A DNA stretch of 64,000 nucleotides from Pocillopora damicornis (Eukaryota): the NCBI RefSeq assembly GCF_003704095.1, contig NW_020846216.1, positions 124,001 through 188,000 of the forward strand, written 5' to 3'. Positions 1 to 63,758 of this stretch are shown here, piece by piece. A program made the position numbers and the translations under genes. The notes beneath the pieces were generated by a model that was not told the DNA's origin, did not search any database, and saw only the letters and a list, made by a program, of their open reading frames with translations. Position 1 is the stretch's first letter; every line of letters begins with the position of its first letter.

Positions 1-213
1 ACCCAGGGTTTAATTTTAATCCAAGTTTCTATATTTCTCTGTTCAAATGCTGTTTGGGGATAATGTTCCCAATTCTTTTCATTTTAGAGCATTCAATTAA
101 CAAATTGTACACAAATGGCCTTTAACTGAATTTATTTTAAAGCTTTCAGCTCTGAAATCAAATTTCACACTAACCCTTGATTATCTTAACCCAGCTCTCA
201 ACAACCTGGCCCA
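1..213. repeat. Terminal part of an interspersed repeat, probably a MITE end, truncated by the window edge
   Basis: Ends in ...TTATCTTAACCCAGCTCTCAACAACCTGGCCC, a TIR-like terminus. Non-coding. The partner end is not in the window, and the family assignment is from recall only. Confidence 0.35.
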
Positions 214-235
214 GGGAAAGAGAATATAGTTATTA

Positions 236-40610: not shown

Positions 40611-42104
40611 AATCAGCAAATTTTAAAACCTGGAGAAATTTACGGTGTATGAAACAATCCAAGGAAATTGATTTATATTTAAGCTCTACTAAAAATATTT
40701 CTTTCATCCTTGATGATGCCGTTGATCGGTAACAGCTCGAATTTTTAAACTTTACCCCTGATTTTTTTTAAAGGCCTTATTCGAATTTTGATATTGTTTA
40801 TTTAAAAAATGTTACTGGAGGACGGCTGCAAAGATTATAAAAATTTTTTGGTTTTGCCACATTCTCTCACAAGTCTTAGCATACATTAACGAATGTCCAG
40901 TTCGCAGGCAGCCATTTTGGTTTTTTTTTTCCGCTGGCTGATTTTTCCCGATCATGTTGGTTCATCTGCCAAGTTGAATATACTTTCAGAGCTGCCCATC
41001 AAAGGGTTTTTTAAATTGTATTTCTCATTATTTCAGAGGCCCAACCCTGCAATAGAATTGACTTTCTTTTTTTCTTGTTATTTTAATAAATATGAAATGT
41101 TGTCACGGTCAATCAGTATTTCTAAATGTATTAGCTATACGGTTGGAAAAGAAATTCCATATCTACGCGCACCTATGTATTATTCTCTAAAATTATATAA
41201 TTTTTTTCATAGATTTCTTAAAATTGGGATAACTTGATAAACCTCGCATTACAGGATATAACATGTACTTCAGCGAGAAGTACTATAATCAAATAATATT
41301 CTTGTAATTCAACATTGAAATTATAACCAAGCTCGGACTCATGTCATTCTGTTTGTCATTTGTAAATTTTAATAGAAAATACATGAACGTTTAAGCTTTC
41401 AATGAAGAAAAAAAAATTGGAATTTCTTTATTTTCTTATGCACCTCAAGTTGAAAGTTTTGCTTAATTACAATCAATAGTTAAGGCGTGGTATAATCAAT
41501 GAGACCCGAGTAACTTAACAGGTCTTACGGCAGACGTCACAAATCACGTGACACGGATAACGACGGGTGAACAAAGAACAAAAAAATCAGCAAGTGAATT
41601 TTACGATTCACCGGTAAGGAGGATTCTATTATTCTCTTTTAATCACACCACCTGATGTCACTCACGAACAGATATTTCTAATATCTTGGAATTCGAAGAT
41701 GGGATAACGAGCAACAGAGAGAACAACTTCTTTCTTAAAGTTGAGAGGTAAGAGAAACGGCTTATTGATTAGCGCCGGTTAAGTAGCCGCTCTACCAGCA
41801 GTTTCAAGTATAGCATAGCTGGAATATCTTCATTGTCTCTGCGTACAATCTCTCAAATTAATTTGACTATGGTTTAGCTGCGAGTTCCATTGTGTTTGAA
41901 TGAAATCTATTTCGGGCGGGAGAAAATCGAAAGCAGGGACCGTAATTGTTTTGATAGCTCGGAGACGAGTGCAAAGGGGAACAGGTTGCTTTCAGACAGG
42001 TTCCATTCAACTGTTCAAGTGCCAATTTGTTTTTTTTTTGGAATTAGGTCATTTTTTCGTCTCTGGAGTGAACAATTTTTCTCTTTGTGTTGCGCGCAGA
42101 TCAT

Positions 42105-45100
42105 ATGAACGGAATTGATGAGGATGACCCAGATTTCATCATTACATCTTCTACTGACGACCAAAATTGTGACAGCATGCGAAGGAAAAAATTGATTCCG
42201 TCCATCCAGCAGTCCATCAAAACACGAGTACATAAAGTCGGAACTTTGAGAGGGTTGCCACGACTATTTCTATTACGACGAGCATTTTGCTTCTACTGGT
42301 GTGTGATAATATCGCTGTTTATTTACCTCAAGTGGTATTATCCACTATATCTGACAAGTAATGTCAACAGAAACACTTTAGAAGACTTTGGCAGGGACTG
42401 GTGTCGAATGCGCAATGCACGAGTAGATTGGGGACGGCTACAGGAACCTTGCATAGAAAACACGGTCTACGAAAATAATTTACCTGGATGGAATGTAGAA
42501 AACCGGACTAATGGGAGAATGAGTTTTGTTTCATCCACTGATATTCAACCTGCTGGACAGTTTAGCAGGATTATCATTCAGTCCCAGACTGTTGAGGACC
42601 TTCCAAAATCGGTCGGGGGGGACTATTGGCGAGTTTTTATCTCGGGTCCCACTGGGTTTGCGCCCACGGTAACTGACCTTGGTAACGGAGAATACGAGAT
42701 TCTGTTCTTGATCCTACATCCAGGGAATTATTGCTTGTCGGCGGTGTTGGATCATTCCCTATGTGACGGGATGAAAGACCCTCCGGATTATTGGTTTGTT
42801 TCAGGTAGGCAGGTAACCAAGAGAGGATTAAACGAACCTGTTCTGTTCTTTGGAATAAGCCAGGCGGACGGCCAATCTCATTGTATCATCTTCTCATATT
42901 GTTACTTAAAGCTGAAGTCGTATTTAATGTTACAGTGCGATTGCATCAACCAGGGAACAAAACCTTCTCAGAGTCCTTTCTCTCGAAAGAACAGGGGGGA
43001 GACTAAATACGATTTTAAAGTTTTAGACTAGTCATTATACAACTTCAAATACGGAGATTAAAACAGCTTAACCAATAAACCATTCTTTTTTCAGTGAACG
43101 GTAAAGGGTTAAGATTATCATCCATTATTGTCTCTTCTTCAGGGAACAGTCACGGAAGCAACCAGCCACAAGGAATTCTAAACGGAAAGCAAGTTTACTT
43201 AATGCAACCGCTTTCGGGAGGCGAGGAATTCTGTTTTGACGTGCCTGTGAGCAGCGGGCCAATGAGAAGAGATGGTATTAATTAGCGTGTTGGTTTTAAT
43301 TTTACGTTTTTTCAAACAACGTTGTTGTCTTGGGCACTTTTTATCTGAGCAAACTGATCTAATTGAAAAGATGTGAGCCATGTCGACAGATTTTGGAAGC
43401 GGTTCTCCAGTTATCAGACCATTTGTAATCATAATTAATCTCTCTTTTCCTTTGAAAAACTACGAGTTAAGCTTGTTCAACAATGGAAAAGGCGGTTTTT
43501 TTTATAATTTTGTGCATTCTTCAGGCAAAAGAAGGCAAGTGCGAAGTGAGAATTACGTGGAATTGCGTCACGCTCGCGGTTAACCCCGATCAATGAATCC
43601 TTACCGCTAAGGTTGTTAACATTTTACCCAATTCGCGCGGCATACTTGGTTCTTTCGGTCAAAATCATGGTTTTTCAGTATTGTCATTTTTCTTTTGCAG
43701 AATTTTTGAGTTACGGGCTTGGATACCCGTCATATTGTGGAACAAATTGTAAATTTCTATCGGATGGCTTCGGTTACTGGAGCAACAGGACTTGGGTACC
43801 ACACGCTCCTGGTAAGGTGTAGTACTTTCATTTAAGCTTGGTTATCGTTATACACTCACACATCTCTTCAAATTTTCTTAAGGTACAAAGACTTGAAAAA
43901 GTCTCAAGTTTAACCAGTCTCAGTTTTTTTGTGTGAGGGGTGGGAGGGGTGGGCCGAGTTTTCCCTCTGGACAAGTCATCCACAATTCTGCTTTAGGACA
44001 AAGGGCAGCGGAACTCAGGTACTATATAAATAATCGGGAGAAATCCCCGATATGGCAGTACAGATCCAAACATGTTTAATGACTGAGTGATCTATTGTAA
44101 CAGTTACATAATAGCAGTGCTTGCAACGCGTGAAGTGCGCGCAACGAAGCCCTATACTTATCAAAAATAGTGTACGACCGTACGACCGTACGACCGTACG
44201 AGGTGCTACTTTTGACATGCGTGGTCAACTGTACCGCGGGCACGCCAACGCCATGGCTTTGTCCAGTAGTCCAGTGGTCAGTGCACTGGGCTCCGAGTCG
44301 GACCACCGGGTTCTAGTTCTGGCCGGGGCAAGGCGTTGTGCCCTTGAGACGTGCGGGAAAAAAAAATGCGAGCTCCGCTTTTAGGCTTGGCTAAATCTAT
44401 ATATTAACCCATCAAGCTGAGAAAATTTTAGACTTTGTTTTGTTGTCATTTCGCATTTGACTATTTGAAAGGAGAATCACGAATGAAAGGAAAAACATCA
44501 ATATTTAGAGTGAACTTGCAATGGAGTCTGATTTTCCGTACCTACCAAATTAAGGGAATATTAACTGAGAAAACTTTCCACGTCTCCCTGACCCATATTA
44601 ATCTCTAAAGTCTATTTTAAATTTCGCGCCACGCAGGGAAGTTATACTTATTTATTCTTCCCATGATAACGTGGTTGATATTCTCTTGACCAAATGGACT
44701 GTAACAAAAAAAAAACCATGTTACTTATGGCGCACATTTTGAACCCTTATTTTTCAGAGAGATTATTCAAGAATTCTCCGCGTAAGAGGAAGGGAACTCT
44801 GTGGATCTATGGTGATTCATTAGCCTTGCGATTTTACGATTCTATTTACTACACATCTCTCTGCACGGAAATATTCAAGGCCTGTAATGTGACGTACACT
44901 TGGGTGTACAACATGATTGAACCAGTGGAAGTTGAAAAGTACAAAAGGACTTATCGAGATTTTGATCCTTCCCGCGTGTTACAAGAAATTAGAAACGTCA
45001 TTTATCTCCCTGAAATGGACGAAAACAGTGTGATAATTCTCAACTGTGGACTGCATTACGTATCCGCTTTAAAATTTGGAATTTATCGGAAGCTTATTGA

Positions 45101-45767
45101 TGCAATTATTGACATGTTTAAAGAGACTTGGGAGAATGAACATGGCGTGATCGAACTAAAGTTCAAAGGGAAACTGATTTGGAAAACGACGACAGCCATT
45201 CACAGAGAGAGATTTTTGTATCATGACCATCCAAGCCCGCGGTTCTTAACTCTTCAGGTGCGTTTAAGACCTATGTTCTAGTCAATTGATTATGTTTATC
45301 AAAACCAGTTTGCCGGTTCCCATATGGACACCCCGCCCGGTAAAACAGTGATGGCGTAAAACTTTTTAGAATATTGCAAAGCGAAGTAAATTAAAACCGG
45401 TACATGCAGTTAATGATTACTTTCGACACGTGCTTGAAAAATGATTATATTTTAATTGAATAATCAGTTTTATTCTGATCATTTTTTGCTCCTTGTTTCT
45501 CCACAGCGCATACAGTTGTACAATGCATACGCTGTTTGGGCCATGTGTAATGCGGGAATTGAGATTTTGGATGTTTTTCCGATGAGTTATTCGTTTCCGG
45601 AAGGAACCGACGGAAGTAGCGACAGATACGATGCTGTACATTATAAAAACATTGTCTTCAAACCAGCTGAACAGCTTTTGTATGAATATTTCAATCCTTA
45701 CATGGACAAACCAAGGAAGATTGGATTGTATTATTCTTTATTTGGAAATAAAACCGCCAACTTGTAA
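42105..45767 (+). CDS. NXPE-like / PC-esterase (SGNH) type II membrane protein, copy 3 (5 coding exons, about 567 aa)
   Basis: Exons 42105-42804, 43143-43274, 43701-43811, 44758-45257 and 45507-45767. TM segment AFCFYWCVIISLFIYL, GGDYWRV...DLGNGEYEI, CGTNCKFLSDGFGYW, WIYGDS (44811-44819), NCGLHY and DAVH (45630-45641). Confidence 0.9.
44022..44406 (+). mobile_element. Unclassified GC-rich insertion with an 8-bp tandem motif and an embedded tRNA-like segment
   Basis: Bounded by TATATA motifs. (CCGTACGA)x3 at 44172-44201. A-box-like TAGTCCAGTGG and B-box-like GGTTCTAGTTC at about 44267-44320. Confidence 0.5.
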
Positions 45768-48700
45768 ATAAAAATCGTTTGTTTTTGTTATAGAAGAAGC
45801 GACGCCAGGGGGAGAGGGGAGTGGAGTGTAGTCGAAGCATCTAAGATGATCTTCTATGTGGAACAGTTTACTACAGTTTACTATTACAGATGCTACATGC
45901 ATGTGAAAACAATCATCTCCAACTGCTTTTAGCAGATGTATAGTTCACGAAAAAAAAGAGTGCAGAAACCCACAGATTGCACGCAATCCAGTGTGTATTT
46001 GCCTCGAACCACCCACAAATTCAAATCTTGAAGCCGGATTTTAATTAAGTGAGATTGGTAGTTTAATAAAATTTTTGTAGATATTGTCTTATACAATTAA
46101 TTTCATAATATGAAGAACATGCAGGACAACCAAATAAAACAAATTTACTTCCCAGTTCTTAAATCAAAACTCACAGATTAGAAGTCTACATTAATGTTAG
46201 TAGATTTTCAAGATAGAAATACCATGCAACACGTTGATAAGGCTGTCGCTTCTCTTTAAGATCCACACTCTCATGTACATTACAATAAATTATCTCGCTT
46301 TTGCCCCCGAGAATCAAAGGTAGACTGGTGAGCATGCACATTCATCTTGTGAAGTTCCAGCAAGGGACTTATCACTCGTCGTGTAACAAAAGTAAAGAAG
46401 ATCTAGACGAAAAATTAAGTCCCTTTGTATCTATATCTGAGTGTAGTCGACACCCATCTTGATTCACAAACTACATCTGACATGTAGATTCAACGATCTA
46501 TAATAACGCATAGAAAATAAATGCGATATTTGAGGAAAACAGCCGTTAAATGAGTGGCGACTTTTTATTATTGCATGAACTTATCCAACCTTGCCCCGAA
46601 AAAGGGAGGAATTAGAAAAAAAATTATATTTAAATTTCTAGCGATAAATCCCTAAACTCATTAGCCGTCAAGTGCGATCAAAATAAAAACACTCCTTTGA
46701 ATTTTAATATACTGTCTAGCAGACGGATGTTAAGAATTGAGAAATGAAAAAGTATAGGAATATTTCATTATCTTAACACCAAACTGTCTGCACAGGCCTA
46801 CAAAGAAATTCCTGGTTAGAAAAACGGATTTTAGAAAATCACTTTTGATCCTTGAGAGTGGAAGATTCCAGTAAAAAAAATGTATTTTTGTATGCTTTCC
46901 CCGCATTTTCAAGTCTTTTAATTTTTCTGGTCTTTATCACCTAATTTTCTCCGCACGACACTTAAAAGCGCACGGAAGACCGCAGAGGACACCATCAGTT
47001 AATCAGTCAGCCAGTTAATCAAATAAGAAGTAATTTATCTTGACGCGTTTTTTCTCTCAAAGTATTGAGCTTTGCGAATTATGAATCAAAGTGTGGCACT
47101 TTTATTTTCAGTCGGTAGGGGCTGCGCTGATTCATGCTCTTGAGAAGAAACTTGGTGCTAATTTTACTGGAAAAACCAAAGAGTAGGAGTACTGTCTACA
47201 ATATTATTGCAGAACCTGTGAAGGAAGGAGCAAAGAAATCTCAATGAATGAGTGTGTTCCATATATGTCAAACAAGACTCAATGCCGCACGCTAATCTGT
47301 AACCTAGCCTCCGCTCTAGTTACCAGTTCTAACCGAGCGATTGAACTGGGTGAAGCATTTGATGGATCTCAAAATTTGATCCAGCTCAAAATTTGATGCA
47401 ACCTAAAATTTGATGTTAAGGGGACTTTTTAAGCATAAAATTCTTTTTATCACAGAATAGTTTGGGTATTGCATGGACCTCGCAGTATTAGGTATGTCTG
47501 GGGGCACTGGATGTACCCCGGGGGCAATGGACATAGTCCCGGATAAAAGGCACATGGCTTAGTGGACTTTGCATTGATAGTGGACTTTGCATCGATAAAC
47601 TATCATCGCCTGAGTGAAGGGGGGGGGGGGGGGGGGGNNNNNNNNNNNNNNNNNNNNNNNNNNNNNNNNNNNNNNNTGACTGATTCCCCTCCGTTCTCCA
47701 TGAAAACCATGTGATCCCCTAAAAATTCTCCACCTCCCAAAAGACTGGCCTCTAATCTGGCGGCAGGAAAACTTCCCATGAAAGTAAATGTTCATTAAAC
47801 GTTAAGTAAACGTTAAGTATTCATTTATTCCAGCTATTTATTGGTTTTCGTCGTATTTCATTCGGAAACGTAAGATCGCTATAGAAATCGGAACGCCCTT
47901 TGATGACATTGTGACAATTTTCTTTTGTTTATCGTCCAAAAACGAACAATAGCTTCAATTCCGAAAATTTTGCTTTTAATTTTTTAACCACACAGCAAGG
48001 AATGCCAAATTTGAAAGGCACTATAACTCAATAATAAAGCATGAGTTAATTAAAATGCCTCGCGAATGCACACGGCAAATGGCAAGAATTGAACTTTCAG
48101 CTTTTGGAGCAGTCCGTTCGCGTTTTTCAGTGATGAAACATTACAGACAGTAACAATGGCTTAAATGTAAACAACAGAAGTTTGGAGTTCATTGACAAAA
48201 ACGGCTCGCGAGCGTCCCAAAAACACTTCCTCCGCAATTGCTTTCAAAGGCTTCTGATGAATTTCAGAAAAGCTGTCAGACTCAAAGCTATCTAGTTCCT
48301 TAGATCGGACTTTCCTAAATTTCGATTGTGATCTAGCACGCGCTGTTCGGAATGTTCTCGAATGCACGACTTGCAAACACGCTTCACACGCACCTCATTC
48401 AAAGGTCTCTCTATAAAGCTCGCAAAATGCCCTTTTTTATTTTATGCAAATCAAGATTGAGAACATTTGGCGAAAAAAAAACTTTTCATGCATAAAATGC
48501 TGCAGTCATTCTTTGGAATTCATGCTTCACTCGCGCCGGTAAAAGGTGGCTGTGCAAAAATTAAAACGACAATAACAAGAAGTAAAATACGAACTTTGGC
48601 CCACAATCATCAAATATGCTTGTTCAAAGTCTCTATTTAAAGATTTGAAAATGCTCTGTTTTAATAAATACAAATCAAACTTGAAAACATTGAGCGAAAA

Positions 48701-50091
48701 CATATGAAGGCACAAAATATCTTCAATCATTTTTTGGAGTTCACTGACACGTCAAGGATACACTTGTAGACGCTGCCGCTCGAGGTCGCATAATTGCGTT
48801 TCTGTTTCATTCCTTTGAGTCTTTCTCCAAAAGATCTCACCTTTTCCAAAACGAATGAAACCGAACTTAGTCATTACGCTTTCGGCGGTTCTACGTGACC
48901 CCCCGAAGTGAATACCCAAAGGAATAAAGCGAGCCTTCTATGCACAAAATCCAGCAGTGACACCCATTTCTGAATGACACACTTACATCGACGTGAAGTT
49001 GTGATGAGCCCCAAGTTTGGAGAGTGGATTTCGTTGTTGTCGTAACCGAGTTGCGGTTATTATCCACTGGTCTGGTACTTTGCAAATATTACAGCAGCTT
49101 TCTCGACCTTTCTAAAACCTGAATGCTAATGTGTTGTAAATAACAAAGATCATGTCACAACGAAGATGTCACCTATAACACTCTACGAGTTATTTTGTGA
49201 CGTCACTCACTCGTGCGTCATGTAGGAGATTTTAGACTTTACAGCCTGATTAAAACTTGAGCTTTGTAAAATGGACCACTGAAACCTTCGAGTAAGCTTT
49301 TCTCGCACTTGAATTCAAACAGGGCAAATGGTGTATAACTCTGACAGATGTTTTGAACAGTACATTAACTACTGTCTATTTCACTTGTTCTAATGCAAAT
49401 TTTAAGACAGTAAGAATGTCATTAAAATAACACAGCCTGCAAAGTAAACAACGACGACTAAATAACTAGTCTCTTCAACTGTTGCCTTTGCTTTCAGCCA
49501 AAAGCACTTGGATTTAGTTTGGTTTCTGCGCATAAGCGATCAGATACGTACAAGTTGATTTGCTACAACAGCCACAGTCAAGATCTATCGGGGCGATAAA
49601 GGTACTTAGTTACCCAGTTTGGTTAAGTGTTTTGACTCCCTTCTGACTTGAATCTCGCTGCCATATAGCAAAAGGCTGATGAGAAAGACGCCCCTTCGAC
49701 GCAAATGCTTCCACGCAAATGACTTAACCTACAATCTTAGTTTTTGTATAAGCTTTCTAAAGTTCGTGATAAAAGTGGTTAGAACTCTTTTGTGATTGAA
49801 AAAGTTCTGTTTATTCTTTATGAAACCGAATACTTATTAGCATTTTTGATATGTTCATAAGTTGTCTTTTTAGCAAGAGTTCCCTTCCATTCCTGCGGTC
49901 TATCATAGACTCCAGGAATTCGTAAACACCGGAACATTTGGGTTTCCCTCTTGCGGACCATGGGGTTAAGATATTATCTGTAGGCGATATTTTTCTAAGC
50001 ATGATCAGGATTTTAGTATCGGTATTGTTGTGATTAAAAGCTTTTGATTTACGATAACTAACGCATAACAAGTCACAAGTTAATTTAATAT

Positions 50092-50228
50092 TATCAACCG
50101 AATTGATAACGGTAAATTGGCCACCGTAAATTGGCCTCCGTCATCAACTCAGTTGATATACCAAATTACCCTGTTATACTCTACCACTAACGCAGCACCA
50201 CAGTTTATTGAGAAACTTACCCCTTTTA
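50092..50228 (+). mobile_element. Short fold-back Penelope-like 3' remnant, hammerhead deleted
   Basis: TTATCAACCGAATTGATAACGG...TCATCAACTCAGTTGATA...CGCAGCACCACAGTTTATTGAGAAACTTACCCC. Confidence 0.65.
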
Positions 50229-51303
50229 TTAATTAGCAAACAAATTACACCGAATTCTTAACAGGACTTAGTAAAAGATAAAGTTAAGAATATTACAATA
50301 CGCTTGATCAGAACTGAAATGACGCCAAAATAGACAACTGACCTGCAAAGTCAATGGCTTCAAAACGAAATAAGTAAGTCACGTACCCCATTCACATCAA
50401 ATCTCAAACATGTTTTTAAGCTGGTTAAATCGATCTTTGTCAATTTATTTTTTTAATTTTGTGGGGGGGGAGGGGGAGGGGGGCTTCACTACCATGGCAA
50501 CAGGAAATAGTAAACAAAATGCAATTGATAAGGGGATCAAAAAGAAACCTCGCTAAAAAGCTTTTTTAATTTGTTGTAAACTGATTTAATTGGAACAACA
50601 AACCCTCTCTCGCTTACACAATTATTCCGACTAAAGAACAGTTCACTTAAACCTTTTTGTCTAAATTGATTTCTTTTTACGTGTAATATAACCTATTTTT
50701 GTCGTAGTGATTAATGAAAATCACATCTAGGCAACACGCCTTTAAAAATGTTAATCTTTTAACAACACGTTCTCTTGTTTCGAAACGACATTGTACAAAA
50801 TCACGACAAACTAACCGAACAGCTGGTAATATCACGCGAAGTTGGACAGCACGAGGGAAAAGATATGTTGAAAAAATACTGAAAACATCTAAACAAAACA
50901 GAACTTGAAAATACAAATATCAGGGCGCACGGTAAAGAAAAAGAACATTTTTACCAACGAAATTGGCTCTTTTAACTTACGTAACCTGACCTTTCGATCT
51001 AGAGATCCTGCTGGCCGGCTCCTCTTCCTTCTGCGATTCTTTTTTGTTTTACCCAAAATAAGGGGGAAAGCTCGGGACCCCCAGGCCCCTCCCCTAGATC
51101 CGCCACTGGGTAATGTAAATTGTTTCGAATTTAATTGTATTCGTGTTTCATTTCCTCATTCTCCCTGAGTTCGGTATGCCACAGACAACCCCTCAGAACC
51201 TTCTCTGAAGTGCTTTCCGGAGGTCACTAAAAGGAACCATGTGAATTGTCACGACCATGAATTACAACAATTCTTAATTCGTAATTTTAGTCTTAGTTCA
51301 AAG

Positions 51304-53683
51304 ATGGGATGCGGAGGTAGCAAGGCAGTGAGAACCAGAACAGCTCCAACACCGATCGCTCTCGATCAGGGACAAACTACCACCATTATTACTTCTTCCA
51401 AAGAGGAGACAAGCCCTTTAAACCACAGAGAACAGCCCGACGGTAAGACAACCGTTGATCAAACTGCGTCAGAGGGACACCAAGAAACCCAGAAGCCAGA
51501 TAATGAGGAACCAGTCACTCAGAAGCAGATTTCCTTGGTGCAAGAAACTTGGGGGCTAGTGAATGGTGATCTAGAAAAAGTTGGAGTAGACTTTTACATA
51601 AGGTAAAACATCTCAAATGTTATTGAATCAGCTTGCCCTTGGTCATCATATTAAGTTACAACAATTCAAGTTTAAAATGTTCCTAGTACATCCATGGGTT
51701 TATTGTATTCCAGCCGAAAAGTGAGACCCTTCAGTTTGCATGTGCTTTGAAGGAAACTTTCTCAGTGTATGGACACAGAAAGTCAGCAAAAAGATTTAAC
51801 AGAGTTCCCTAGATCTTATAGCAAGATGTCTGTATTTGTTTCGACTTTGATCCCTGAATGAAAAGCATGTTTTTCATCGTTCAATTTCTCCGTTATAGTC
51901 GGGCTCATTCGTATCATGATAAATTAGCGAGAAGCCGCATTTGATGAGGTAACAACTTTTTAAACTCACAAATCAAACCTAGTTTGATGAGAAAAGTATT
52001 TTGACCATGAAAAGATGTGCTGCCACGCCATGCAATGAGGTCAAGTTGCGAAATAATCTGTTTTTAGAACCCTGCGGTTTGACGCGATGCCGCATGTCAT
52101 TTGCCAGGCCGAGACTGCAAAAAAAAAAACAAAACAAAAAAAACACAACATTTGAAAAATACGTCATGAAGGATAGCCCCAACCAGCTCTCTACCGAGAA
52201 AAGTCACTAGTCTAGGCATGTTCTGTTCTGATCAACTGTGAAAATACCACGTCGGCATGGAGCACTTAGGTTACAGTCGCCTGCCCGTAACTGAAATCAT
52301 TAATCCAGTAACTTATTTACCACCTTTCATAAAACCTTTAATAATTGTTTGGCAATATGATGTAATCTTTAAAAAATTGCACCAGCTTATGCCAAGTGTT
52401 CTTGTGGACGCGGCGGGCGCGATAGTGGAGCAGAGCGAGATTAGTGGAACGCTTCTGACGCCTTTTACGTCCTCTTATCCTCTAGAGCACCCGTTTTTTC
52501 AACAGAGACAAAATTTGTAGAGCGCTTTTCACTAACTACTGAATGTTTTTGTCTCAGAAAGCAATTTTTGATTCTTTTTTTTTTTTCTCTAAGGTTGTTG
52601 AAGGCAGACTCAAATATTTTAGAACTGTTTTCATTCCGAGACATTGACAAATCATCCGATGACATCATGAGAGCCGATGATCGACTTAAAAGACAGGCGC
52701 TGGTAACAATGCAACACGTGGACTTGGCCGTGAACTCGCTCAACGATCTGGGCTCTATTGTTCCTGCTCTCAAGGACCTGGGAGGGAGACATACGATGTA
52801 CAAAGTCGAAGAACGTCATTACGTGGTATGCAATGAAATGTAAAGAAATGTATGTCACGTGAGTAAACAATTCGATATCTGCAGTCACACCCAAGTAGCC
52901 AATGAATACTCAAAGTAAAACCAAGGAAATAAGCAGAGAGGCGGGAGAACACGAGTCATTAAATTTCTGTATGGAAAGACTTCCTAAGTGAAATAACTAG
53001 CATTTATAGAGGTAAGAAATCGTACAAACGAAGCGATCGCAAGACTTCTTTGGGGTCAATTAAATATCTAGTTAGTCAAAAGTTCAGCAGTGACACTTCA
53101 GGTGGTAGCTCTTGGTCAAGTAGACTTGTGCCTCTATTTTTTAACTTTTAGGATCTTTTCATACTGAAATATACTCCACGCAAAAATATTCAGGTCGGAA
53201 AAAACTAAAATCTGGGAACACTTTTTATTCGTAGAGCGCTTTCAGATTGAGAGTTAAAAAACCAAAACCAAAGAGATTACAACAGCCAATCAGGAGAGAG
53301 AAAAACATTTTAGACAATAGGAACAATAAGAAAACGCGGGTGACCAAGTCGTGATTGGTTTTAGTTTTTTTGCATCTGATTGGTTGAGAAAGTGGTGCAA
53401 TTTTTTTGGACCCAATCACAGAGCAAAGTAAAGCGAAATCAATGCTATCCTGGATTATTTTCGACAGTCAATTGAGAATTGCCCTCGTTGTTTTCGTTTA
53501 ATTTAGATACATGTAGTTTTTTTTTTTTAATTATTTTAGGTTGCAGGATCTGCTTTACTCGACACTCTTAACAATGGTCTAGGGGACAAGTTTACTTCAG
53601 AGGTAAAAGAAGCGTGGACTGTTGTCTATGGAATCGTTGCGAACACGATGCAAGCAGGAGCCAAAGAAGTTTTGGAGGGATAG
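51304..53683 (+). CDS. N-terminally acylated (globin X-like) globin, 224 aa
   Basis: Exons 51304-51602, 52594-52825 and 53540-53683, with introns at the canonical B12.2 and G7.0 positions. MGCGGSK N-terminus, LVQETW (A helix), PheCD1 (LELFSF), proximal HisF8 (LGGRH) and AWTVVYGIV (H helix). Confidence 0.93.
53232..53485. mobile_element. CCAAT/ATTGG-rich MITE-like repeat
   Basis: TAGAGCGCTTTCAGATTGAG...TGATTGGTTGAGA...CCAATCA...CGACAGTCAATTGAGAATTGCCCT. Related pieces at about 6110-6260, 32340-32500, 37770-37995, 55260-55525, 57720-57890 and 60600-60872. Confidence 0.55.
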
Positions 53684-56670
53684 ACAAGGAAATATCAGTT
53701 CATATACTCTATACACAACCAAAAAATATTCTGAGAGGGTCTTTTATAGAACGTTTATTGCTGCGATTTCGCCTCATTCTGAAAACGTTAAAGAAACAGG
53801 AAACGTGCGCAAACTTTCATTGCTTTGTTTAAAACAAAACAATGCTGCCTGCTTCTCAGGCTTTAAAAATGTCTTAACTGCCTAGTTGGTCACGGCGACA
53901 AATGTAGACTCGAATATACTCAGTACCCTCTGAAGGAAATCGTCATCGATCAATTGTTAAAAGATTTTAAATATATGATTTGGCGAGCCAAGTATGCAGA
54001 CATGTAGGGCATTTTTCTTCAAAACCACATCTAGACCTTGACTTCTCCAGAGAAGCTGTTATATTGTCGTGCCTTTCAGGCAAGCTCATGTAAGGGTGAG
54101 GCGAACCTGCGTGCACGCGTGGCGCGTCCTAAGAGCGAGTGAAGTGCGAGACACGCGTGACGCGCGCCGAGTGGCACGGGTCCTCTCCCGCGTGATCCAC
54201 CCTCCACACTTGTCTACAGCTTTCCTCCGCTTCCCCGGAGGACGCCAAAAAATTACATCTCTCATGCAGGCTAATTCGTTGTCTTTGCTTTTACTTTTTC
54301 AAGGTTTATTTACCTATCGTGAGTTACTGATATACTTTTGCTGTCTTGCTAGTTTTTTTTAATTTATAATTCAGAAAGCTGATAGACTGACTGTTGATAA
54401 GACTGAGTGTCGCGCTTAAGAAAAACGAACACGATGATCATTAATTGCAAACAAGTTTTAGCGTAAATGTTTTTGTTCGTGGCTTTCGTTTTTTTCTTAG
54501 CTTAGTTTTCGCATCTGCGTAACTTTTGTTATCTTTTTTAATCAGGCATATATTGGTATTGTATTGAAGTATCGGTGGCAGAGTGTTAAAGTGCCTTTTG
54601 AAGGATCTCGAATATTAGTTGGTGTATTGTCCGACCACTGACGATCCTGTAACCTTCTTATTCCCAAGATCCAATAAGTTATACTCCCTTCTCATTGTAT
54701 TTCCTTATTGATTAAATCCGAAAATTTGGCCATAAATCACGATAACACTCTCTAAAAAAATTAGCCGGTCTGTTTTTATAACCTTTTTGTAAAATAGCAT
54801 ATTGGAATTACAAGGAGAACTTATATGTTAATCAGCCCTAAAAGCTAAAGGATAGGATTTCCGAAAAGGTTCACGGCTGCTGTGTCACAGATAATTCGTC
54901 GTGATGATTTTCCACTGGAAAGTGCCTTTATCCGCCATTGTTTGCTTGTTAATATGAATGATATACTAGCATTTGAATGCATACAATGCTTTAGTAACGA
55001 TAAACAAAAAAATTAGGTGGCAATCACCACCTGACTCTTATACAGTATATTTGTACAAACGATAACCAAAAAAAAATTAAATAAATAAATGAGAAGAAAG
55101 AGACCTTTAACAGCTGCCTCAGTTTTAAGGGGAATACATTCATAAAAATGCAAACGTGTTTTTTTTTTATTTTTATTTTTTTTTTACGTACATCCTTTCT
55201 GGAAAGGAAGCATTAAACAGAAATTATACTCGGTGGCTGTGGATCCTCAGGCTTGATTTACCAAAGTTGAGAACAGTTTTCGATTGCGTGTCAAAAAACC
55301 AAAAGGAAAATAATGGCAAAGGTCAATTCGAAAAAATTTAACATCATCTTAAGACAGTGAGGACGCTTAACAGACAAGCTGCTTGAAGAGTGGAAAGCGG
55401 AAGTGATCGAGTCACGTTTTGTTCTAGTTTTGCATCTGATTGGTTGAGAAAGATGGGGGAGTTTTTAGACCACTGAAACAAAAGAAACCCCGGATTACTC
55501 TCAAATTTTAACTGAAAATCGCTTATTCAACTAAACCGTTGTTCTGTTGAACAGAAGCTGGTTGGAATGCCTCGATCGACGGCACACAGTGCTGCAGTCC
55601 CACCGAAATTTCCCACAAATGCTCCCGGTCGGAAGTCATGGATCATTCTTTCAACTTGACCTCTCGGAACAAAACGAAGATGAGGACAAAGGAATTTTCG
55701 CGACAAGTCTAATCCGTAATTTTACTTTTAGTTTATATTAAGAATGGGATGCGGAGGAAGTAAGGCAGAGAGAATCAATACAGCACCAGTTCTGATCGCA
55801 GGACAGACTACTACGACCACATCGACCGCTACACGAGAGGAAACCAGCCCTTCAAACCCCAGACATCAGGTCGACGGTAGGATAATAGATGACCAAACTT
55901 CGACAGCGGATCGAGAAGAAACACAGAACCCCGGACACTGTGGTGGAAGATCTCATCGAGCCAGTCACTGAGAAGCAGATTGCCATGGTGCAAGAAACTT
56001 GGGGACTTGTGAAAGGTGATATAGAAAAAATGGGAGTAGAGTTCTACATGAGGTAACACATCTCCAATGAAATTAAACTCGACTAAGCCTTTGTTTTGTT
56101 AATCTAATACAATTCAACTAGTGTTTCCGCGACATTCATGGCTCTGCAGTATTCCATCCTAAACTTAGCCCCTTCGATTTTTACGTTCCTCCAGTGGGAA
56201 CCCTTGGAAATTTACAGACACAGTAAGTAGATAAAAGGATCTTATAAAGTTGTTCGTTTAAATTTTATAGCGAATTTAATCTTTTTCAGTGTTAAATCCT
56301 TCCGATACAGTTGCATATATGTGTATATATTTATTTACAGATAATTATATCATGGTAAATCATGACAACTTAATTATAGAGGAGCTGTCCATTAAGGAAT
56401 CGAACTTAATTGGTTACAAATTCTTGACTGTAACATAATGCGTTACAGAGAGTGCTACAAGATTATTTGGTTTTATTAACTGAGTTTATCACACATTGTA
56501 AACTGGCCACCGCTAACAGTTTCTAAAGCTGAACACCTATTTAATTACATCAGATTACCTCTACCAGTGAGAGGTCTTTAGGGAGCTGTGTATCCGGATT
56601 TTCATCTTTTTATTTTGTCTTGATAACTAATACTAACCTAAAAAAGCAAGTTTTTCATTAATTTTAAATT

Positions 56671-57346
56671 GGACATGGTTTGATGCTACTTTGGTTTAAA
56701 GATTTAATGAATGTAACCGAGAAGTTACAATTCATGGACCCAACGTTTCGACAGAGACAAAGAAGTTCTTTGTCCTAGGGAAGTATCTTCTCCGAGTCTC
56801 TCCTCCGCAACCTTAACCCTTTAACTCCCATAAGTGACCAAGACAGGATTTCTCCTTACAATATCAATACAATATCAAGCAGAAAAGTGTTGAGAATAAA
56901 GAAAAAAATCAATTAGGGGATTATAAATTGATCCAATCCCGAATTCTCCAAACTAGCATCACAAGAACTGTATGGCAGGCAGTAAGGAGAATTGCTAATG
57001 AGATCTTGGGAGTTTAAGGGTTAACGGCCTATTTGCCAAAAGAAATGGGATAAGTCTATAGTTATCACCATTAATCGGCGTTATCACCAGCGCCTTTGTT
57101 TGGAAGCCTGGCATATCAACTCCGCCCACGCTCCTTTAAATCGTGATGATGGCGGCTTATTTCCTGACGCCTATTTACACCTCGTCAGAAAAAAGGTCAG
57201 CTAATTAGTGAGCGTGTAAAAGGACCTCCTGTTGCAGCGTTTAGATGAAGGCACTAGTAAGGAGTGTCGAAACGTTGGGTCTATGAATCGTAACTTCTCG
57301 TTTACATTCATTAAATCTTTAAACCAGAATAACATCAAACCATGTC
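56671..57346. mobile_element. Element bounded by inverted repeats of about 82 bp, with a hammerhead-like motif and a nested TTAA MITE
   Basis: 56671-56753 is the reverse complement of 57265-57346. TAGATGA-A-GGCACT-agtaagg-AGTGTC-GAAA-CGTT lies at 57242-57276. Confidence 0.65.
56813..57024. mobile_element. TTAA-type MITE, subfamily 3 (complete)
   Basis: TIRs TTAACCCTTTAACTCCCA / TGGGAGTTTAAGGGTTAA. Confidence 0.85.
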
Positions 57347-57400
57347 TGAATGTCCACCTGGTTGCTATGTAAACTTTAATATATTTCAATTTTAAATCCT

Positions 57401-57426
57401 TCTCTCTCTCTCTCTCTCTCTCTCTC
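57401..57426. repeat. (TC)n microsatellite forming the polypyrimidine tract of the globin pseudogene exon 2
   Basis: About 13 TC units immediately before the acceptor at 57434. Confidence 0.9.
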
Positions 57427-58493
57427 GCTCTTAGGTTATTCAAAGTGAACCCAGAAACCTTAGAAATGTTTTCATTCAGAGACATTGATAAATCATCGTG
57501 TGACAAGATGAGAGCTGATGATCGACTTAAGAGGCAGGGACTGGTAACCAGGACTGGTAATCGGGGTTCTATTGCTCCTGCTCTAAAGGACTTGGGAGAG
57601 AGACATGCAAAATACAAAGTCGAAGAACATCATTATGGGGTATGGAAAAGCAAATTACTTAACGCGATCTTTGCAGCCAGTGAATTATCATACTGGAATA
57701 TGTCAAATGATCACGGTCAAATAGAACGTTTTTCGCAAAATCTAAACCAGAGTTATCGATAAGTTATTACAACAGCCAATCAGAGCGAATCAAGTAAAAC
57801 AAGGAGGTGAGAGAGTAAAAACAGTTAAATTGCCCGAAGCAAGGGAAATGCAATTGAAACAAAACGCGGACTACTTTCGACAGTCAATAAAAAAATTGAA
57901 ATAAGTGGTAGCAATCACGATGATAGCACAGGTCGAACACACTTTTAATTTTCTTTAATGGTCAATTTAAAATCTACTGGTCTTTCAATTATTCACCCCT
58001 GTCCACCTATCGACGGGCCATTGACGAACCAAATTAAAGTTATGTGGGCGGTATCGAGTTTTCTTTTAAGATCTCATTTAATTAAAACAAACTCCACGTA
58101 AAATTATCAAGGCTTACAATGCTTGAGATCTTGAAACACTTTTTGGGCCAAAATAAAAGTGCAATTTCATAGAATTTTGTCTTAAATTTATGTTATTTTT
58201 TAACTGAAAGCTTTTTGGGGTCGCTTTGCTTGACACTCTTGACAAAGACTCGAGAAAGAAGTTTACATTGGATTTAAAGAAGCATGGGTTTTCGTTTATG
58301 GAATTGTTGCGGACAAGATGCTAGCAGGAGCGAAAGACGTTCTCGAAGGATAGATCACAGATGACAAAAAAATTTCTGCACAGGTCCTTACAGTGATGGC
58401 GCTGAAAGAGTAAAACAGATGCATTCACTTTAACCGTCATGACTGCAAGCCGACTGGAAACATTTTTTCAATAACCACAGGCAGCCCAAGCTC

Positions 58494-58862: not shown

Positions 58863-59268
58863 TGCATAATGTCTGACATAGTGGCTTACATGTTTAATAA
58901 GCACTCCACAGTCGTGTCTATGTAAATATTAGGAAGCCCTTTCACGTGTTGTAATTGTATCTTTTTTTGGTTAAATACTAAGGATGATAATGTTTTCATT
59001 ATAAATATAAACACAAATTAAAATATTTTTAGCGATAAAGACGAACTAAATAAATGAGAAGCTATGAACTGTCAACAGCTGCTTGATTTGTGAGGAAAGG
59101 CTATTCATGACATAAAAACAGAGCTCTATCTGCATGAAAATAAAGTTAGTAAGTGTCTTGGAAATCACGATGACTTCAAAGTCGTTCAAAGGTCGTGTGT
59201 TACTCTGTCTTGTGATCCAGGGAGGTCTGGGCACTACGGCCGAAGTGACACAACACAACTGACTCAAA

Positions 59269-62200
59269 ATGGTCGCCGGAGCGTATGCAACGAACCCCAG
59301 AAGGCAGAAAACGTACAAAAATGGCTACTCTGCCAAAGCTAATGGATTTGCAGCTCACGAGCAAGCGAAACTTAAAGAGTTTAAAGAGTCTTTTACCGAG
59401 GATTTCGAGGATACACCGTTTCAAGTCGCTGTTTTAACGTATCTATCTTACTTCTTTTTGATTCTGTTCGGCTACTTACGTGACTTCATGCGAAAATACG
59501 GTTTGGAAAAGTCGAAAGCACCGAAAGAGGGCGGAAATGAGGTGAGAATGTGATCTAAAAGTGCTTTTACTTACAAAGAAATATTCATAGCTTCCTGAAA
59601 TCATTACGGATTTCAAGATCAGGCACAGTTCTCTGATGTCAGCTGTTGCTGTACAATCACGAATCGCTACACCACAATTTGAGGGCGTCGACCGAAATTA
59701 TTTTTAGTCAAAAACTTCCTTTCATCAAGCTTCGATTCTGTAACTATACTTCCCATAAAGAAAATTCGTCGATGGAGGAATTATTTTTTCTGGGAATGTG
59801 AATTTAATGCCCGAGTTATTCACAAAATATTCGTTCTCGTTCTTCGATCGATGCAGCGCGCTTCGTTTCGCAATGTTTTGACGGTGAGACGCATGGGCAA
59901 ATAGACTGATGTTGTCATTGAACAAGAATGTAGAGGCCTGTGGTCATTCATAAATTTAAAATAACGCAATGTGACAACATCTAGATGTTACATATTTCCC
60001 TGGCAGTATAATGTATCCGCTTAAAACCCGTACAATTATGATGTAAGTGCATGGTATTGCATAACTCAACACCTTGGAAAGATCACCATACCAAGATAAA
60101 ATGTGTCACTCAGGAAAATTAGCTCTCCTTTTTTTTCGATGAAAACAGTTACGTTAACCCCTAATCCACCAAGAGGTCTTTGACAAATTTCCTCTTTAGT
60201 TGTCTTGTGTTCATTCCTTATCTTCTCGTTTTCATCCTCTGTTTGTTGGATATAAATTTGCTGAGAGGTCACATGCTAATCACCTCAATAAGCCAAAGAG
60301 CTAAGGTTTGAAAATAAGGTCGGATTTTCATGAGGCCACATTTATCTATAACTTTAGGCTAAAACCTGATGTTTACAAATTGATAAAGAGGGTAATTTTG
60401 TAAAGAAACTACATGTACATGGGGTGGGGTGTAATTAGATAATTTGGTTTTGTCAGCTGACTTAATAATATGAATTGGCCTTGTCAAAATTTCTAAAGCT
60501 GATGTTTTGTGTGTTAGTCTTTTGTCAGAGTGAATTAGGTATTTCACGCAAGGCATTTTACACTGAGGTTTTTAATGTTAGCTTTTCATCAGAGAAATTA
60601 AGAGCTTATTTCAATCCAATGCTGATAAACCAAAATCATAGTAATCACAATTGCAAGTCTTAGCAAAGGGAGCAAGGGTCCAATGAGAATTCAGAGTGAA
60701 AGCAAGCTAACTTCTAATAGCATGGGAAACTGTGACCAACCAAGTCATGGTTTTTTTTGGTTTTTTGTTTAGATCTGATTGATGTCAGTTTTCTGAACCA
60801 ATCAAGTGGTGAAATAAAGCAGAACCAAATAAATCTTGGAATGCATACAACACTCAATTTAAAATTGCTCTAAAAAGGAGTGTTAAAATCAGGTTATTTT
60901 TTACTCTTTTTATTGTTCTTGGTATCCTGATATTTTATGTTTTTTTTTAGCATGCTTTATTCATTAGTACCTTGTTCTACTGCACTTGCCCTTCCTTATA
61001 CTCAGAACAATTTGACCCTTTAACTCTCATTAGTAATAACTGTGTATATACAATTCCTATGATGTTAACTCAGAGATAATGTTATTATATCAAACAGTAA
61101 TCCCATAAATTTAATTTTTTTTAAAATTGTTATTACTGGTTGTTATTGTATTGATTGTAACTAAAGGAGAAAATGCTCTTGGTTACTCCTGGGTGTTAAC
61201 CCTTTAACTCCCAGATCAAATTTGTAATTCTCCTTACTGTCAACCATGTAATTCTTATAATGTTAGTTCAGAGAATAAAGTATTGGATCAACTAATTATC
61301 CCAAATTGATATTTTTCTTTATTCTCATCACTTACCTGGTTGATATTGTATTGATAATGTGAGGAGAAATTCTGTTTTGGTCACTCATGGGAGTTAAAGG
61401 GTTAAAGGATTTGCAGTCTTAATAACTTACTGTTAAAAGTCGAGTAGACCTCATTTTCTCCAAACTACTTAACAAGACTTAAAGCAATGTTTAGTACAAA
61501 AGGAAAGGAAATAACACTTCAAAAGTGTGCCATGGAAAAGTGGGGTGAAATGACAAGCAGTTGGCTAGCTAAACCTAAGTTGTTAAACTAAGCTTAAAAA
61601 GTAAATCCTTTTAGCACATGTATCAAGCATGGCCTTGTTTTTCTTGATAACAAACACTTATAATACTGTGTAAAATACAATTTGGCCTAAGTGCATTAGA
61701 TATTTGTTTGTCAATGAATAATATTATTTTCTCATTGTTTGACCCTTAAATATTCAATATTTTACAGTTCATGTAACTCCTACACCTGCATGACTCTTTA
61801 ATTGATTTGTCCACCTGTCAGTGTGTCTTCATCACATTTTTACATGTAGAAGTTCACAGTTTTGTTTCAGAAACTAAAGGTTACTTGAGTCTCTTTCCTT
61901 TTTTTGTTTTGTTTTTCTTCAGGGTTTTGTCCCCCTTTATGCGGATTTTGAAAGTTTCTACACAAGGAATCTTTATACTCGAATAAGAGACTGCTGGAAC
62001 AGACCAATCTGCAGTGTTCCTGGTGCAGATATTGAAATTCTTGATAGAGTCACTGATAATTATGGGTGGTCTTTCAGGTATGATGTACATACCTAAGTTT
62101 TTAAAAATTGTTTTAAAGCGTTTTTTGCAAGGGACTTTCAAGGTCATAACTGCTTAAATTGTTGGTAATAATTATTGAAATACTTGCAGATACCAGAGAA

Positions 62201-63758
62201 GACAATGTGCCTCAGTTAACATGCCAAAAAAAAGCAAAAACTCAAAATTAAATTCATTTTTATGTATGTAAAAAACTGGACAAAATCTCCGGCTATCCAA
62301 GGAGTTGGGCAGAGCAAAACCTATATTTGATTGGACATTGACTGTTGACTAGCCATTATTCTGAGCCTTAATCTTGCATTCCCAAGTTAGCAGAGTCAAT
62401 TTAGAACATTACAGTTAGAATCTAAGTTACAGAACTACTGTAAGGCAGCTTTATTGATTACTGATTTTATTAATGACATACCTGGTGTATTTTTAAATTT
62501 CTTTTCTTAGAAAAACTGGAGAGACCACAAAAGCACTTAATCTTGGTTCTTATAACTACCTTGGCTTTGCGGAAAATGTGGGTCCATGTGCTGAGGCTGC
62601 TGAGAAAACAGTCCTTAAATATGGTCTGGGAGGCTGTAGTCCAAGACATGAATATGGTGAGCTAAACAACATTTCTGTAGCAGAAAATGATCAGTAGTAG
62701 AGCAAATGCCAACTCCTCTGGGGTTGGACTAGGACTTTGCATTTCACGTAGTACAGCGTGGGTGCCACAGGCTAGCAACTTTTATGTCTTTGGGGAACTG
62801 GTAAAACTTTACTTCTACAGAAGCTTTTTGAGTAGGGTATCTAGACGTTTTGTATCAGAGTCCTCAGTAATTTCTCCAAGAGTGCAAAGTTTGTAATTGA
62901 GCCCATACAGTCAGCACTTATCTTGGTTTCTGCAGTATGAAGTGCTTAGGAGAATTATTTCTCCTCCCTGGATGGGGATGCTAGTCTGCCTTAAGGTTAC
63001 CCCTAAGCACTTCATCAAACTTCCCAAACACTTTGCCAGTACTCATTTATACTCCTGGGTGGAGAGAAGAATTGTGAAAGGAAAGAGTTTTGCCTACAAA
63101 CACAATAATGACCCCAGTCAGTTCTTGAACTCAGAGCTCTTGACCCAAAGTCCAGCACATCAGCCATTGGGTCATTGCTTCCCCCAGATTGCTTTTCCAA
63201 GAGTGCAGCTGTGGTAATGCTGGTCCAGAGCAAGGTTGCCCATTAGGCAGTGTTTCCTCAGCTTTCCCTCACAAGTAATTGTTCAGAGGATTTTGTTTCC
63301 TCTCCAGGAACTCTTCACATTCATGATGAACTGGAAGCTCTTGTGGCGCGGTTTCTTAATAAGCCTGCAGCAATAGCTTTTGGAATGGGTTTTGCTACAA
63401 ACTCCACCAACATACCCACTCTTGTGGGGAAAGGTGATTTGATTGTCAGTGATGAGTTGAATCACTCCTCCCTTGTTCTGGGAGCCAGATTGTCTGGGGC
63501 TAAAATAAAAGTCTTCAAACATAATGGTAAGAATTGATGATTAATTTGATTAAAGAAATCTGGTAAATACTGCAGGCCATTTTACAAGGAATTCATCATA
63601 CTGTTAATCCAATGATTGGGTATTGTAGTGAGAAATTTTATTTGAATTTTAGACATGAAAAGCCTGGAGAATATTCTTCGCGAATCTGTTGTTCAGGGAC
63701 AGCCACGCACTCACAGACCTTGGGGAAAAATTCTCATCATTGTTGAAGGAATTTACAG
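59269..63758 (+). CDS. SPTLC2: Serine palmitoyltransferase catalytic subunit (SPTLC2/3, LCB2), 5' part; continues beyond the window
   Basis: Exons 59269-59541, 61923-62077, 62511-62656, 63308-63526 and 63653-63758 are in frame: [100 protein letters not shown]. Confidence 0.96.
60385..60525 (-). mobile_element. Highly decayed Penelope-like 3' remnant
   Basis: GGGTAATTTTGTAAAGAAACTAC...TAATTTGGTTTTGTCAGCTGACTTAATAATATGAATTGGCC...AAGCTGATGTTTTGTGTGTTAG. Confidence 0.5.
61012..61405. mobile_element. Two adjacent or nested TTAA-type MITEs
   Basis: A decayed copy (61012-61199) abuts a younger complete copy (61196-61405, TTAACCCTTTAACTCCCA / TGGGAGTTAAAGGGTTAA). They share the TTAA at 61196-61199. 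Confidence 0.75.
62897..63190 (-). mobile_element. tRNA-derived SINE in an SPTLC2 intron
   Basis: Reverse complement of the family body (CTCCCTGGATGGGGATGCTAGTC; CATTTATACTCCTGGGTGGAGAGA). Flanked by a possible TSD, TCCAAGAGTGCA (62875-62886 and 63196-63207). Confidence 0.6.

What the first reader, a model, noticed from the sequence alone, without database searches (positions are those of the whole stretch)
51304..53683. Membrane-anchored globin with a TyrB10/GlnE7/ThrE11 distal pocket
Seen: using the B12.2 intron (in the Arg of GVDFYIR) as register, B10 is Tyr. The E helix LKRQALVT gives Gln at E7 instead of His and Thr at E11. HisF8 and PheCD1 are intact. The MGCGGSK N-terminus predicts Gly2 myristoylation and Cys3 palmitoylation, followed by a disordered linker of about 60 aa. 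Known: typical globin X and neuroglobin are bis-His hexacoordinate. TyrB10/GlnE7 occurs in Ascaris Hb, Lucina HbII and flavohaemoglobins, and the Tyr/Gln/Thr trio in Cerebratulus nerve mini-Hb, where ThrE11 lowers O2 affinity. Inference: a pentacoordinate membrane-tethered globin, convergent on those pockets, suited to O2 buffering or sensing, or to NO dioxygenation at a membrane.
Basis: partly seen in the sequence, partly recalled or inferred. Interest (0 to 1): 0.7.

Follow-up and report, generated by a model that had tools for sequence, protein, structure and literature searches.

The report
Lipid-anchored coral globin, Tyr/Gln/Thr pocket
This is a real, spliced stony-coral globin gene whose haem pocket has tyrosine, glutamine and threonine where the coral's other globins have a histidine; it is predicted to hang on membranes by fatty acids, likely mops up nitric oxide there with bound oxygen, and likely belongs to a sea-anemone globin lineage already described in 2018, so only the coral-specific threonine is new.

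Summary
Observation confirmed. Three coding exons (51304-51602, 52594-52825, 53540-53683) give a 224-aa globin; RNA contigs bridge both introns. Tyr98=B10, Gln134=E7, Thr138=E11, His166=F8; the His of MQH is E14, not E7. The N-terminal MGCGGSK is the first ATG of the spliced message. The lineage is known: the nearest non-coral relative matches E.pallida_nvec7000121, the anthozoan Gln-E7 'pentacoordinate' lineage of Smith et al. 2018 (PMC6077788), and already has MGCGGSK, TyrB10 and GlnE7. What stony corals add is ThrE11, an apolar E10 and HisE14 (anemones Val, octocorals Leu at E11); my searches found no paper on these. Tyr/Gln/Thr also occurs in some bacterial and protist globins, and TyrB10/GlnE7 is lineage-wide, so only ThrE11 is shown to be derived. 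A deep-water coral without symbionts keeps the triad. Two decayed tandem copies flank the gene. Best guess: membrane-tethered, five-coordinate NO/O2 scavenger (about 45%); coordination, acylation and function are untested. The scan's earlier notes held nothing on this gene. Interest 0.38.

The parts
49433..49601 (+). 5' non-coding exon (start as far as contigs reach)
   Evidence: RNA contigs X2, X3 join 49599 to 51289, GT..AG at cut +2; no ATG in the leader
51292..51602 (+). Exon with ATG at 51304: acylation motif, linker, helix A and helix B up to Arg100
51304..51324 (+). MGCGGSK: predicted Gly2 myristoylation and Cys3 palmitoylation signal
   Evidence: sequence; MGCxxSK at position 1 in 12 of 12 coral/anemone rows; function by analogy with globin X (PMC3176823)
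51325..51507 (+). 61-aa polar linker, predicted disordered
51595..51597 (+). Tyr98 = B10
51603..52593 (+). Intron B12.2 (in the Arg100 codon)
52594..52825 (+). Coding exon 2: PheCD1 52628-52630, GlnE7 52694-52696, ValE10 52703-52705, ThrE11 52706-52708, HisE14 52715-52717, HisF8 52790-52792
   Evidence: (PF00042 above cut-off)
52826..53539 (+). Intron G7.0
53540..53683 (+). Coding exon 3 (helices G, H; stop); contigs run on to 54275 (X1) and 55093 (X2)
55744..58353 (+). Downstream tandem copy, broken but transcribed: frameshift in the linker exon, 27-bp deletion in helix E after ThrE11, frameshifts in the last exon
   Evidence: contigs span its exons; the helix-E deletion and shifted C-terminus recur in the 4 members read of a 29-member public cluster
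47102..47237 (+). Upstream decayed remnant of a last exon (third copy); a weak helix-E-like trace lies at 46221-46277
   Evidence: local score 54 versus at most 34 in 30 shuffles; the 46221 trace has tblastn E 0.5 only

Best explanation
This is an expressed stony-coral globin with a TyrB10/GlnE7/ThrE11 pocket, likely the coral orthologue of the anthozoan Gln-E7 lineage (nvec7000121), predicted to be tied to the cytoplasmic face of a membrane by myristate and palmitate, and likely working there as a five-coordinate O2-binding scavenger of nitric oxide. Shown: gene structure, splicing, pocket residues, fold (by model of the orthologue), conservation, and that it is the only intact Gln-E7 globin found in this genome. 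Inferred: with no distal His the haem iron is open; O2 is held by TyrB10 and GlnE7; ThrE11 would pull the TyrB10 hydroxyl away as in Cerebratulus mini-Hb and so speed O2 release and ligand turnover; the oxy form would convert NO to nitrate and be re-reduced by a separate reductase, none being fused; the 60-aa tether would let the globin sweep the layer under the membrane.
For: Pocket and register. Single intact Gln-E7 gene: of 19 other exon-2 globin matches in the genome 18 have His at E7 and 1 does not cover E7. Orthology: Exaiptasia AUV50087 (P0163) is the best non-scleractinian hit (E 3.4e-40, next 3.7e-28), 74 of 152 identical in the domain, same first seven residues; its 175 aa (528 nt) and Arg52 at B12 fit only the nvec7000121 row (528 nt, exon 1 of 155 nt) of the nine in Smith's supplementary table 6; corals plus anemones form one branch in 3 of 3 trees (94/63, 95/73, 82/79). 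Conservation: Tyr/Gln/Thr in 7 of 7 named stony-coral genera retrieved. Function by analogy: nearest solved sequence is the bacterial Tyr/Gln single-domain Hell's Gate globin I (E 3.6e-22); NO dioxygenation is a common, old globin role and membrane association may help re-reduction (PMC3820574, passages); Smith et al. proposed detoxification for this lineage; a membrane globin is argued to be non-respiratory (PMC3176823).
Against: No biochemistry exists in what I could read; PMC3820574 itself warns that NO dioxygenase function cannot be declared from sequence and needs an electron donor, and none is identified. The coral-plus-anemone branch is never starred, and the wider anthozoan clade is 96/90 but 67/71. 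ThrE11 lowers O2 affinity in CerHb, which suits storage or sensing as well as scavenging. One unnamed coral-clade pair (P0009, P0229) has Phe/Gln/Ile, and octocoral relatives lack the Gly2 motif, so neither triad nor anchor is universal. TyrB10 or another residue could still ligate the iron in some oxidation states (recalled for other globins).
Confidence: 0.45

Rival explanations
1. Membrane O2 or redox sensor: the open pocket, tuned by ThrE11 to myoglobin-like affinity, reports O2 level to a partner at the membrane.
For: Dual acylation is typical of signalling proteins and sensing is one of two roles proposed for globin X (PMC3176823); acylated GLB-26 acts in redox signalling (PMC3520999 abstract); very high conservation of helix E and the E-F corner across corals; one intact copy per genome here.
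Against: No output domain (globin only); no partner known; five-coordinate Tyr/Gln/Thr CerHb changes shape little on ligand binding (PMC3430218).
Confidence: 0.25
2. Protector of membrane lipids against peroxides or other oxidants (peroxidase-like), rather than an NO scavenger.
For: Proposed for globin X and bacterial membrane globins (PMC3176823); open polar pocket next to the bilayer.
Against: No distal His base; no direct evidence in any call.
Confidence: 0.15
3. Local O2 store or buffer, like Cerebratulus nerve mini-Hb, for night-time hypoxia.
For: Same Tyr/Gln/Thr triad, which gives CerHb myoglobin-like affinity and fast release (PMC3430218).
Against: A membrane anchor limits concentration and argues against respiratory use; CerHb also relies on loss of helix A and a tunnel, while this protein keeps helix A; the triad is kept in Desmophyllum, a deep-water coral without symbionts (recalled).
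Confidence: 0.1

Closest known systems
Anthozoan Gln-E7 'pentacoordinate' globin lineage, ortholog group nvec7000121 (Smith et al. 2018, PMC6077788); Exaiptasia AUV50087
   Same: GlnE7, TyrB10, PheCD1, HisF8, MGCGGSK start, introns B12.2 and G7.0, one intact copy; 49% identity in the globin domain; same branch in three trees.
   Different: ThrE11 for Val, Val/Ala for Arg at E10, His for Met at E14, and a linker of about 60 aa instead of about 15. The paper's text does not mention B10, E11, tyrosine or threonine and lists no Acropora gene under this group.
Globin X (zebrafish; Blank et al. 2011, PMC3176823)
   Same: Gly2/Cys3 acylation motif on an N-terminal extension before a 3/3 globin.
   Different: Globin X is six-coordinate with distal His; here E7 is Gln. 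Smith et al. place nvec7000121 outside the globin X and neuroglobin clades.
Cerebratulus lacteus nerve mini-haemoglobin (PMC3430218)
   Same: TyrB10/GlnE7/ThrE11 distal triad.
   Different: CerHb is a 109-aa soluble O2 store lacking helix A with an apolar tunnel; this is a full 3/3 globin with helix A and a predicted lipid anchor. It is not among the best sequence or fold matches listed.
Bacterial single-domain globins such as Hell's Gate globin I (PDB 3s1i) and flavohaemoglobin globin domains
   Same: TyrB10/GlnE7; best solved-sequence match (E 3.6e-22).
   Different: Usually LeuE11 (94 of 107 domains; Thr in 6), short CD region, no acylation motif, no introns.
Neuroglobin
   Same: Identical B10-CD1-E7-E11-F8 spacing, best fold matches (Z about 22); databases label the coral orthologues 'neuroglobin-like'.
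   Different: Phe/His/Val pocket, six-coordinate, cytosolic; about 29% identity.

Membership tests
3/3 globin superfamily (PF00042) | Globin profile match, PheCD1, HisF8, 3/3 helical fold | tested here: met
   (fold tested on the Stylophora orthologue, 132 of 155 identical in the domain)
Anthozoan Gln-E7 lineage nvec7000121 | Gln at E7 with PheCD1 and HisF8 | tested here: met
Anthozoan Gln-E7 lineage nvec7000121 | Introns at B12.2 and G7.0; MGC start | tested here: met
   paper text
Anthozoan Gln-E7 lineage nvec7000121 | Groups with the anemone member, apart from the His-E7 cnidarian globins | tested here: inconclusive
   One branch in 3 of 3 trees but unstarred (94/63, 95/73, 82/79); best non-coral hit by 12 orders of E-value. 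Only two anemone sequences were on hand; the Nematostella gene was not retrieved.
Anthozoan Gln-E7 lineage nvec7000121 | Five-coordinate haem | not testable with these tools
   Only predicted in the paper too; needs spectra
Globin X | N-terminal Gly2/Cys3 acylation motif | tested here: met
   (motif only; acylation not shown)
Globin X | Distal HisE7, bis-His coordination | tested here: not met
   Gln134 at E7
Globin X | Clade with vertebrate globin X | not tested
   No vertebrate globin X sequence was retrieved; Smith et al. place nvec7000121 outside
Neuroglobin | HisE7/HisF8 six-coordination, PheB10, ValE11 | tested here: not met
   Tyr/Gln/Thr
Cerebratulus-type mini-haemoglobin | TyrB10/GlnE7/ThrE11 triad | tested here: met
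Cerebratulus-type mini-haemoglobin | About 109 aa, helix A deleted | tested here: not met
   Helix A present, residues 71-84 of the model
NO dioxygenases | Catalytic O2-dependent NO turnover with an identified electron donor | not testable with these tools
   No reductase domain in the protein; criterion from PMC3820574

The most novel reading that the evidence does not exclude
Stony corals rebuilt an old anthozoan membrane globin into a fast-exchanging O2 device: ThrE11 independently reinvents the Cerebratulus affinity switch, and the coral-specific HisE14 beside the haem edge locks the haem (at the extreme by a covalent His-vinyl bond as in cyanobacterial GlbN, unknown to me in animals), giving corals a membrane-bound O2/NO gauge that matters for hypoxia and bleaching.
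Probability: 0.12. Interest if true: 0.72.

Novelty: new variant of a known kind. Interest (0 to 1): 0.38.

Why it matters
Acylated animal globins whose chemistry I could read about (globin X, GLB-26) are six-coordinate and their function is open. This coral protein is a natural open-pocket counterpart, with a ready series at E11 (octocoral Leu, anemone Val, stony coral Thr) that makes the role of membrane globins and of the ThrE11 switch directly testable. If it governs NO or O2 at coral membranes it would bear on reef hypoxia and bleaching. As it stands the lineage and its five-coordinate reading are published, and the new part is a pocket detail seen only in sequence.

Tried and rejected
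His141 (MQH) as E7: rejected; it is E14, 25 residues before F8 against 32 for E7. Upstream in-frame start that would bury Gly2: rejected for the leader seen, though database models of Acropora and others carry upstream extensions that I did not test. Bacterial contamination or recent transfer, raised by the bacterial best hit in the PDB: rejected (animal-type introns, spliced RNA, synteny with serine palmitoyltransferase 2 also in Stylophora). Assembly error as the cause of the broken downstream copy: rejected (same lesions in public proteins). Photosymbiosis-specific origin of ThrE11: not supported, Desmophyllum keeps it. Homodimer with haem: complex prediction gave no answer, no evidence either way. 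Covalent His-haem bond: no test possible; E14 corresponds to neuroglobin Val71, a V71C structure exists (title only), but my recollection that it bonds to a haem vinyl was not confirmed (0 of 7 papers held 'V71C'), and a Montipora paralogue has Tyr at E14 (4 of 44 coral Tyr/Gln/Thr rows). Upstream remnant: exon-1, exon-2 and leader alignments did not exceed shuffles, and none of three RNA runs covered 45870-47507 beyond a trace. Expression under hypoxia or day-night: no usable data (contigs only; searches; the one 'Neuroglobin' table row in PMC9357087 cannot be assigned to this gene). Three papers were not held (PMID 15161908, PMC3591606, PMC3030322).

Full report
Gene. The finding's span is a three-coding-exon gene on the + strand: 51304-51602, 52594-52825, 53540-53683, GT..AG introns, 224 aa. 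Exon 2 alone passes the Pfam globin cut-off. Contigs of 3 of 4 runs laid (X1, guessed RNA; X2 and X9, RNA; three studies) skip both introns at these places and the fourth, intron-covering run does not. A non-coding exon 49433-49601 joins upstream in 2 of 4 runs; the 181-nt leader has no ATG and has in-frame stops, so MGCGGSK is the N-terminus on that message. The host is a stony coral close to Stylophora: 132 of 155 residues identical in the domain, and serine palmitoyltransferase 2 follows from 59218, as in a fused Stylophora gene model.

Pocket. Y98, F112, Q134, T138, H141 and H166 lie at one constant offset from neuroglobin B10, CD1, E7, E11, E14 and F8 as numbered in the chain printed. A 70-sequence profile aligns neuroglobin and the window exon to the same helix-E columns without gaps. 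The AlphaFold model of the Stylophora orthologue has pLDDT 94-98 over the globin and 40-50 over the first 60 residues and matches neuroglobin, cytoglobin and myoglobin at Z about 22, rmsd 1.5-1.8; against 6h6c the range is 69..219 on 1..151. One result points the other way: the single-sequence alignment opens a one-residue gap in helix E and sets Arg on His64; it is outweighed by the three checks above and never sets the MQH His at E7. No residue-level structural alignment or haem geometry was available.

Relatives. All 10 hits of the exon-2 search have Gln at E7; the four that carry names are stony corals. Over 365 globin domains that cover B10, E7, E11 and F8 (206 of 276 proteins then in hand; 91 partial domains dropped), Tyr/Gln/Thr occurs in 49: 44 coral rows (redundant alleles and isoforms, 7 named genera plus the window) and 5 domains of 4 non-coral proteins, one a glaucophyte protein that also starts MGC. 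A further 6 of 107 domains, short bacterial-type proteins, have the triad while 94 have Tyr/Gln/Leu. Anemones (Exaiptasia, Actinostola) have Tyr/Gln/Val with MGCGGSK; octocorals (Dendronephthya, Paramuricea) have Tyr/Gln/Leu without Gly2. His at E14 occurs in 52 of 365 domains, 51 of them coral-clade; 4 of the 44 coral triad rows, a Montipora paralogue, have Tyr there. Exceptions in the coral clade: an unnamed pair with Phe/Gln/Ile and two Desmophyllum tandem models with Lys at E7. In this genome PF00042 gave 24 matches, 21 of them to exon 2; of the 19 outside this locus 18 have His at E7 and 1 does not reach it (a lower bound on the family).

Trees. Stony-coral proteins form a strong clade (100/99, 100/99, 99/99). 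It joins the two anemone proteins in all three trees, without a star (94/63 on exon 2, 95/73 and 82/79 on the full domain); adding octocorals gives 96/90 but 67/71. The His-E7 globins of this genome fall elsewhere. By parsimony ThrE11 arose in stony corals; TyrB10/GlnE7 is at least as old as the anthozoan lineage, and I cannot tell retention from convergence.

Prior art. Smith et al. 2018 (PMC6077788; read parts 1-4 of 5 of the text, part 2 of 2 of the supplement and term searches) report one anthozoan lineage, nvec7000121, with Gln at E7, model it as five-coordinate, note the MGC motif and the B12.2/G7.0 introns in anemone globins, and suggest detoxification. Exaiptasia AUV50087 fits their nvec7000121 row alone among nine by length (528 nt) and exon 1 (155 nt, ending in Arg52); this match is my inference from lengths. 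Their text has no mention of B10, E11, tyrosine or threonine. Searches for the residue triad, for cnidarian or coral globins and for neuroglobin with scleractinian or Aiptasia showed no paper on the coral pocket; the library lacks most subscription papers, three relevant ones were not held and Blank and Burmester 2012 was not looked up, so 'not in print' is limited. Other papers seen: PMC3430218 (part 1 of 4), PMC2867796 (passages), PMC3176823 (abstract and discussion), bioRxiv 10.1101/789214 (passages; acylated globins are common across animal clades), PMC7457136, PMC9357087, PMC3820574, PMC11951088, PMC12076554 (passages), PMC3520999 (abstract).

Mechanism. Shown: an intact, spliced, conserved globin with an open-type pocket and an acylation motif. 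Inferred from globin X: myristate on Gly2 and palmitate on Cys3 hold it on a cytoplasmic membrane face. Inferred from CerHb: TyrB10 and GlnE7 hydrogen-bond O2 and ThrE11 weakens that hold. I commit to an O2-dependent NO scavenger at the membrane (0.45), because the pocket resembles Tyr/Gln single-domain globins, a tethered protein is a poor O2 store, and the lineage was already read as detoxifying; sensing (0.25), lipid protection (0.15) and storage (0.10) are the rivals. No electron donor or partner is known. That NO matters in coral stress and that Desmophyllum lacks symbionts are recalled, not from calls. The coral-specific HisE14 sits at neuroglobin's Val71, at the haem edge by recall; a covalent His-haem bond like cyanobacterial GlbN's (PMC11951088) is not excluded but is unsupported, and Tyr replaces it in one paralogue.

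Neighbourhood. A second copy at 55744-58353 is frameshifted in its first and last coding exons and lacks 27 bp of helix E, yet contigs span its exons; public proteins carry the same lesions. A last-exon remnant at 47102-47237 scores 54 against at most 34 in 30 shuffles. Duplicates of this gene recur in corals (Stylophora remnant, Desmophyllum, Montipora) but here one copy is intact.

Verdict. Observation confirmed; interpretation partly supported; a stony-coral variant of a published anthozoan globin lineage. Interest 0.38.

Noticed in passing
window 55744-58353: Transcribed, spliced broken copy of the globin; a downstream ATG could give a 142-166-aa anchorless product lacking half of helix E (public cluster of 29 members, P0162).
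   Followed up: partly
window 53543-53545 and 52598-52600: The window protein has Ala at G8 (Val in all 17 other rows) and Leu at B14 (Phe in 16 of 17), two cavity-lining changes next to the distal pocket.
   Followed up: no
P0074 (Gloeochaete wittrockiana): A glaucophyte protein that starts MGC and has two globin domains, both Tyr/Gln/Thr: the same design outside animals.
   Followed up: partly
P0161, P0230 (Desmophyllum pertusum): Tandem paralogue models with Lys at E7 and no His at F8; may be gene-model errors or decayed copies.
   Followed up: no
P0265-P0268 (Montipora): Second paralogue with Tyr at E14; three of four models lack the acylation motif, one has it internally.
   Followed up: partly
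L011, L014, L017, L019, L020, L022, L024-L026 (G000 contigs C3534, C4130, C3410, C1997, C2157): A burst of near-identical His-E7 globin exon-2 copies, several partial or closely packed on both strands.
   Followed up: no
L016 (G000:C2278): His-E7 paralogue with Tyr at E11.
   Followed up: no
window 59218-64000: Serine palmitoyltransferase 2 gene directly downstream; a Stylophora database model (PFX27161) fuses it to the globin, probably in error.
   Followed up: partly
window 30589-45800: Tandem array of related multi-exon membrane-anchored genes (open frames at 30589, 33399, 35844, 38779, 42072, 44679); the last is spliced in RNA contigs; family not determined.
   Followed up: no
window 7359-7865: Tandem repeat of about 66 bp, open on both strands.
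   Followed up: no
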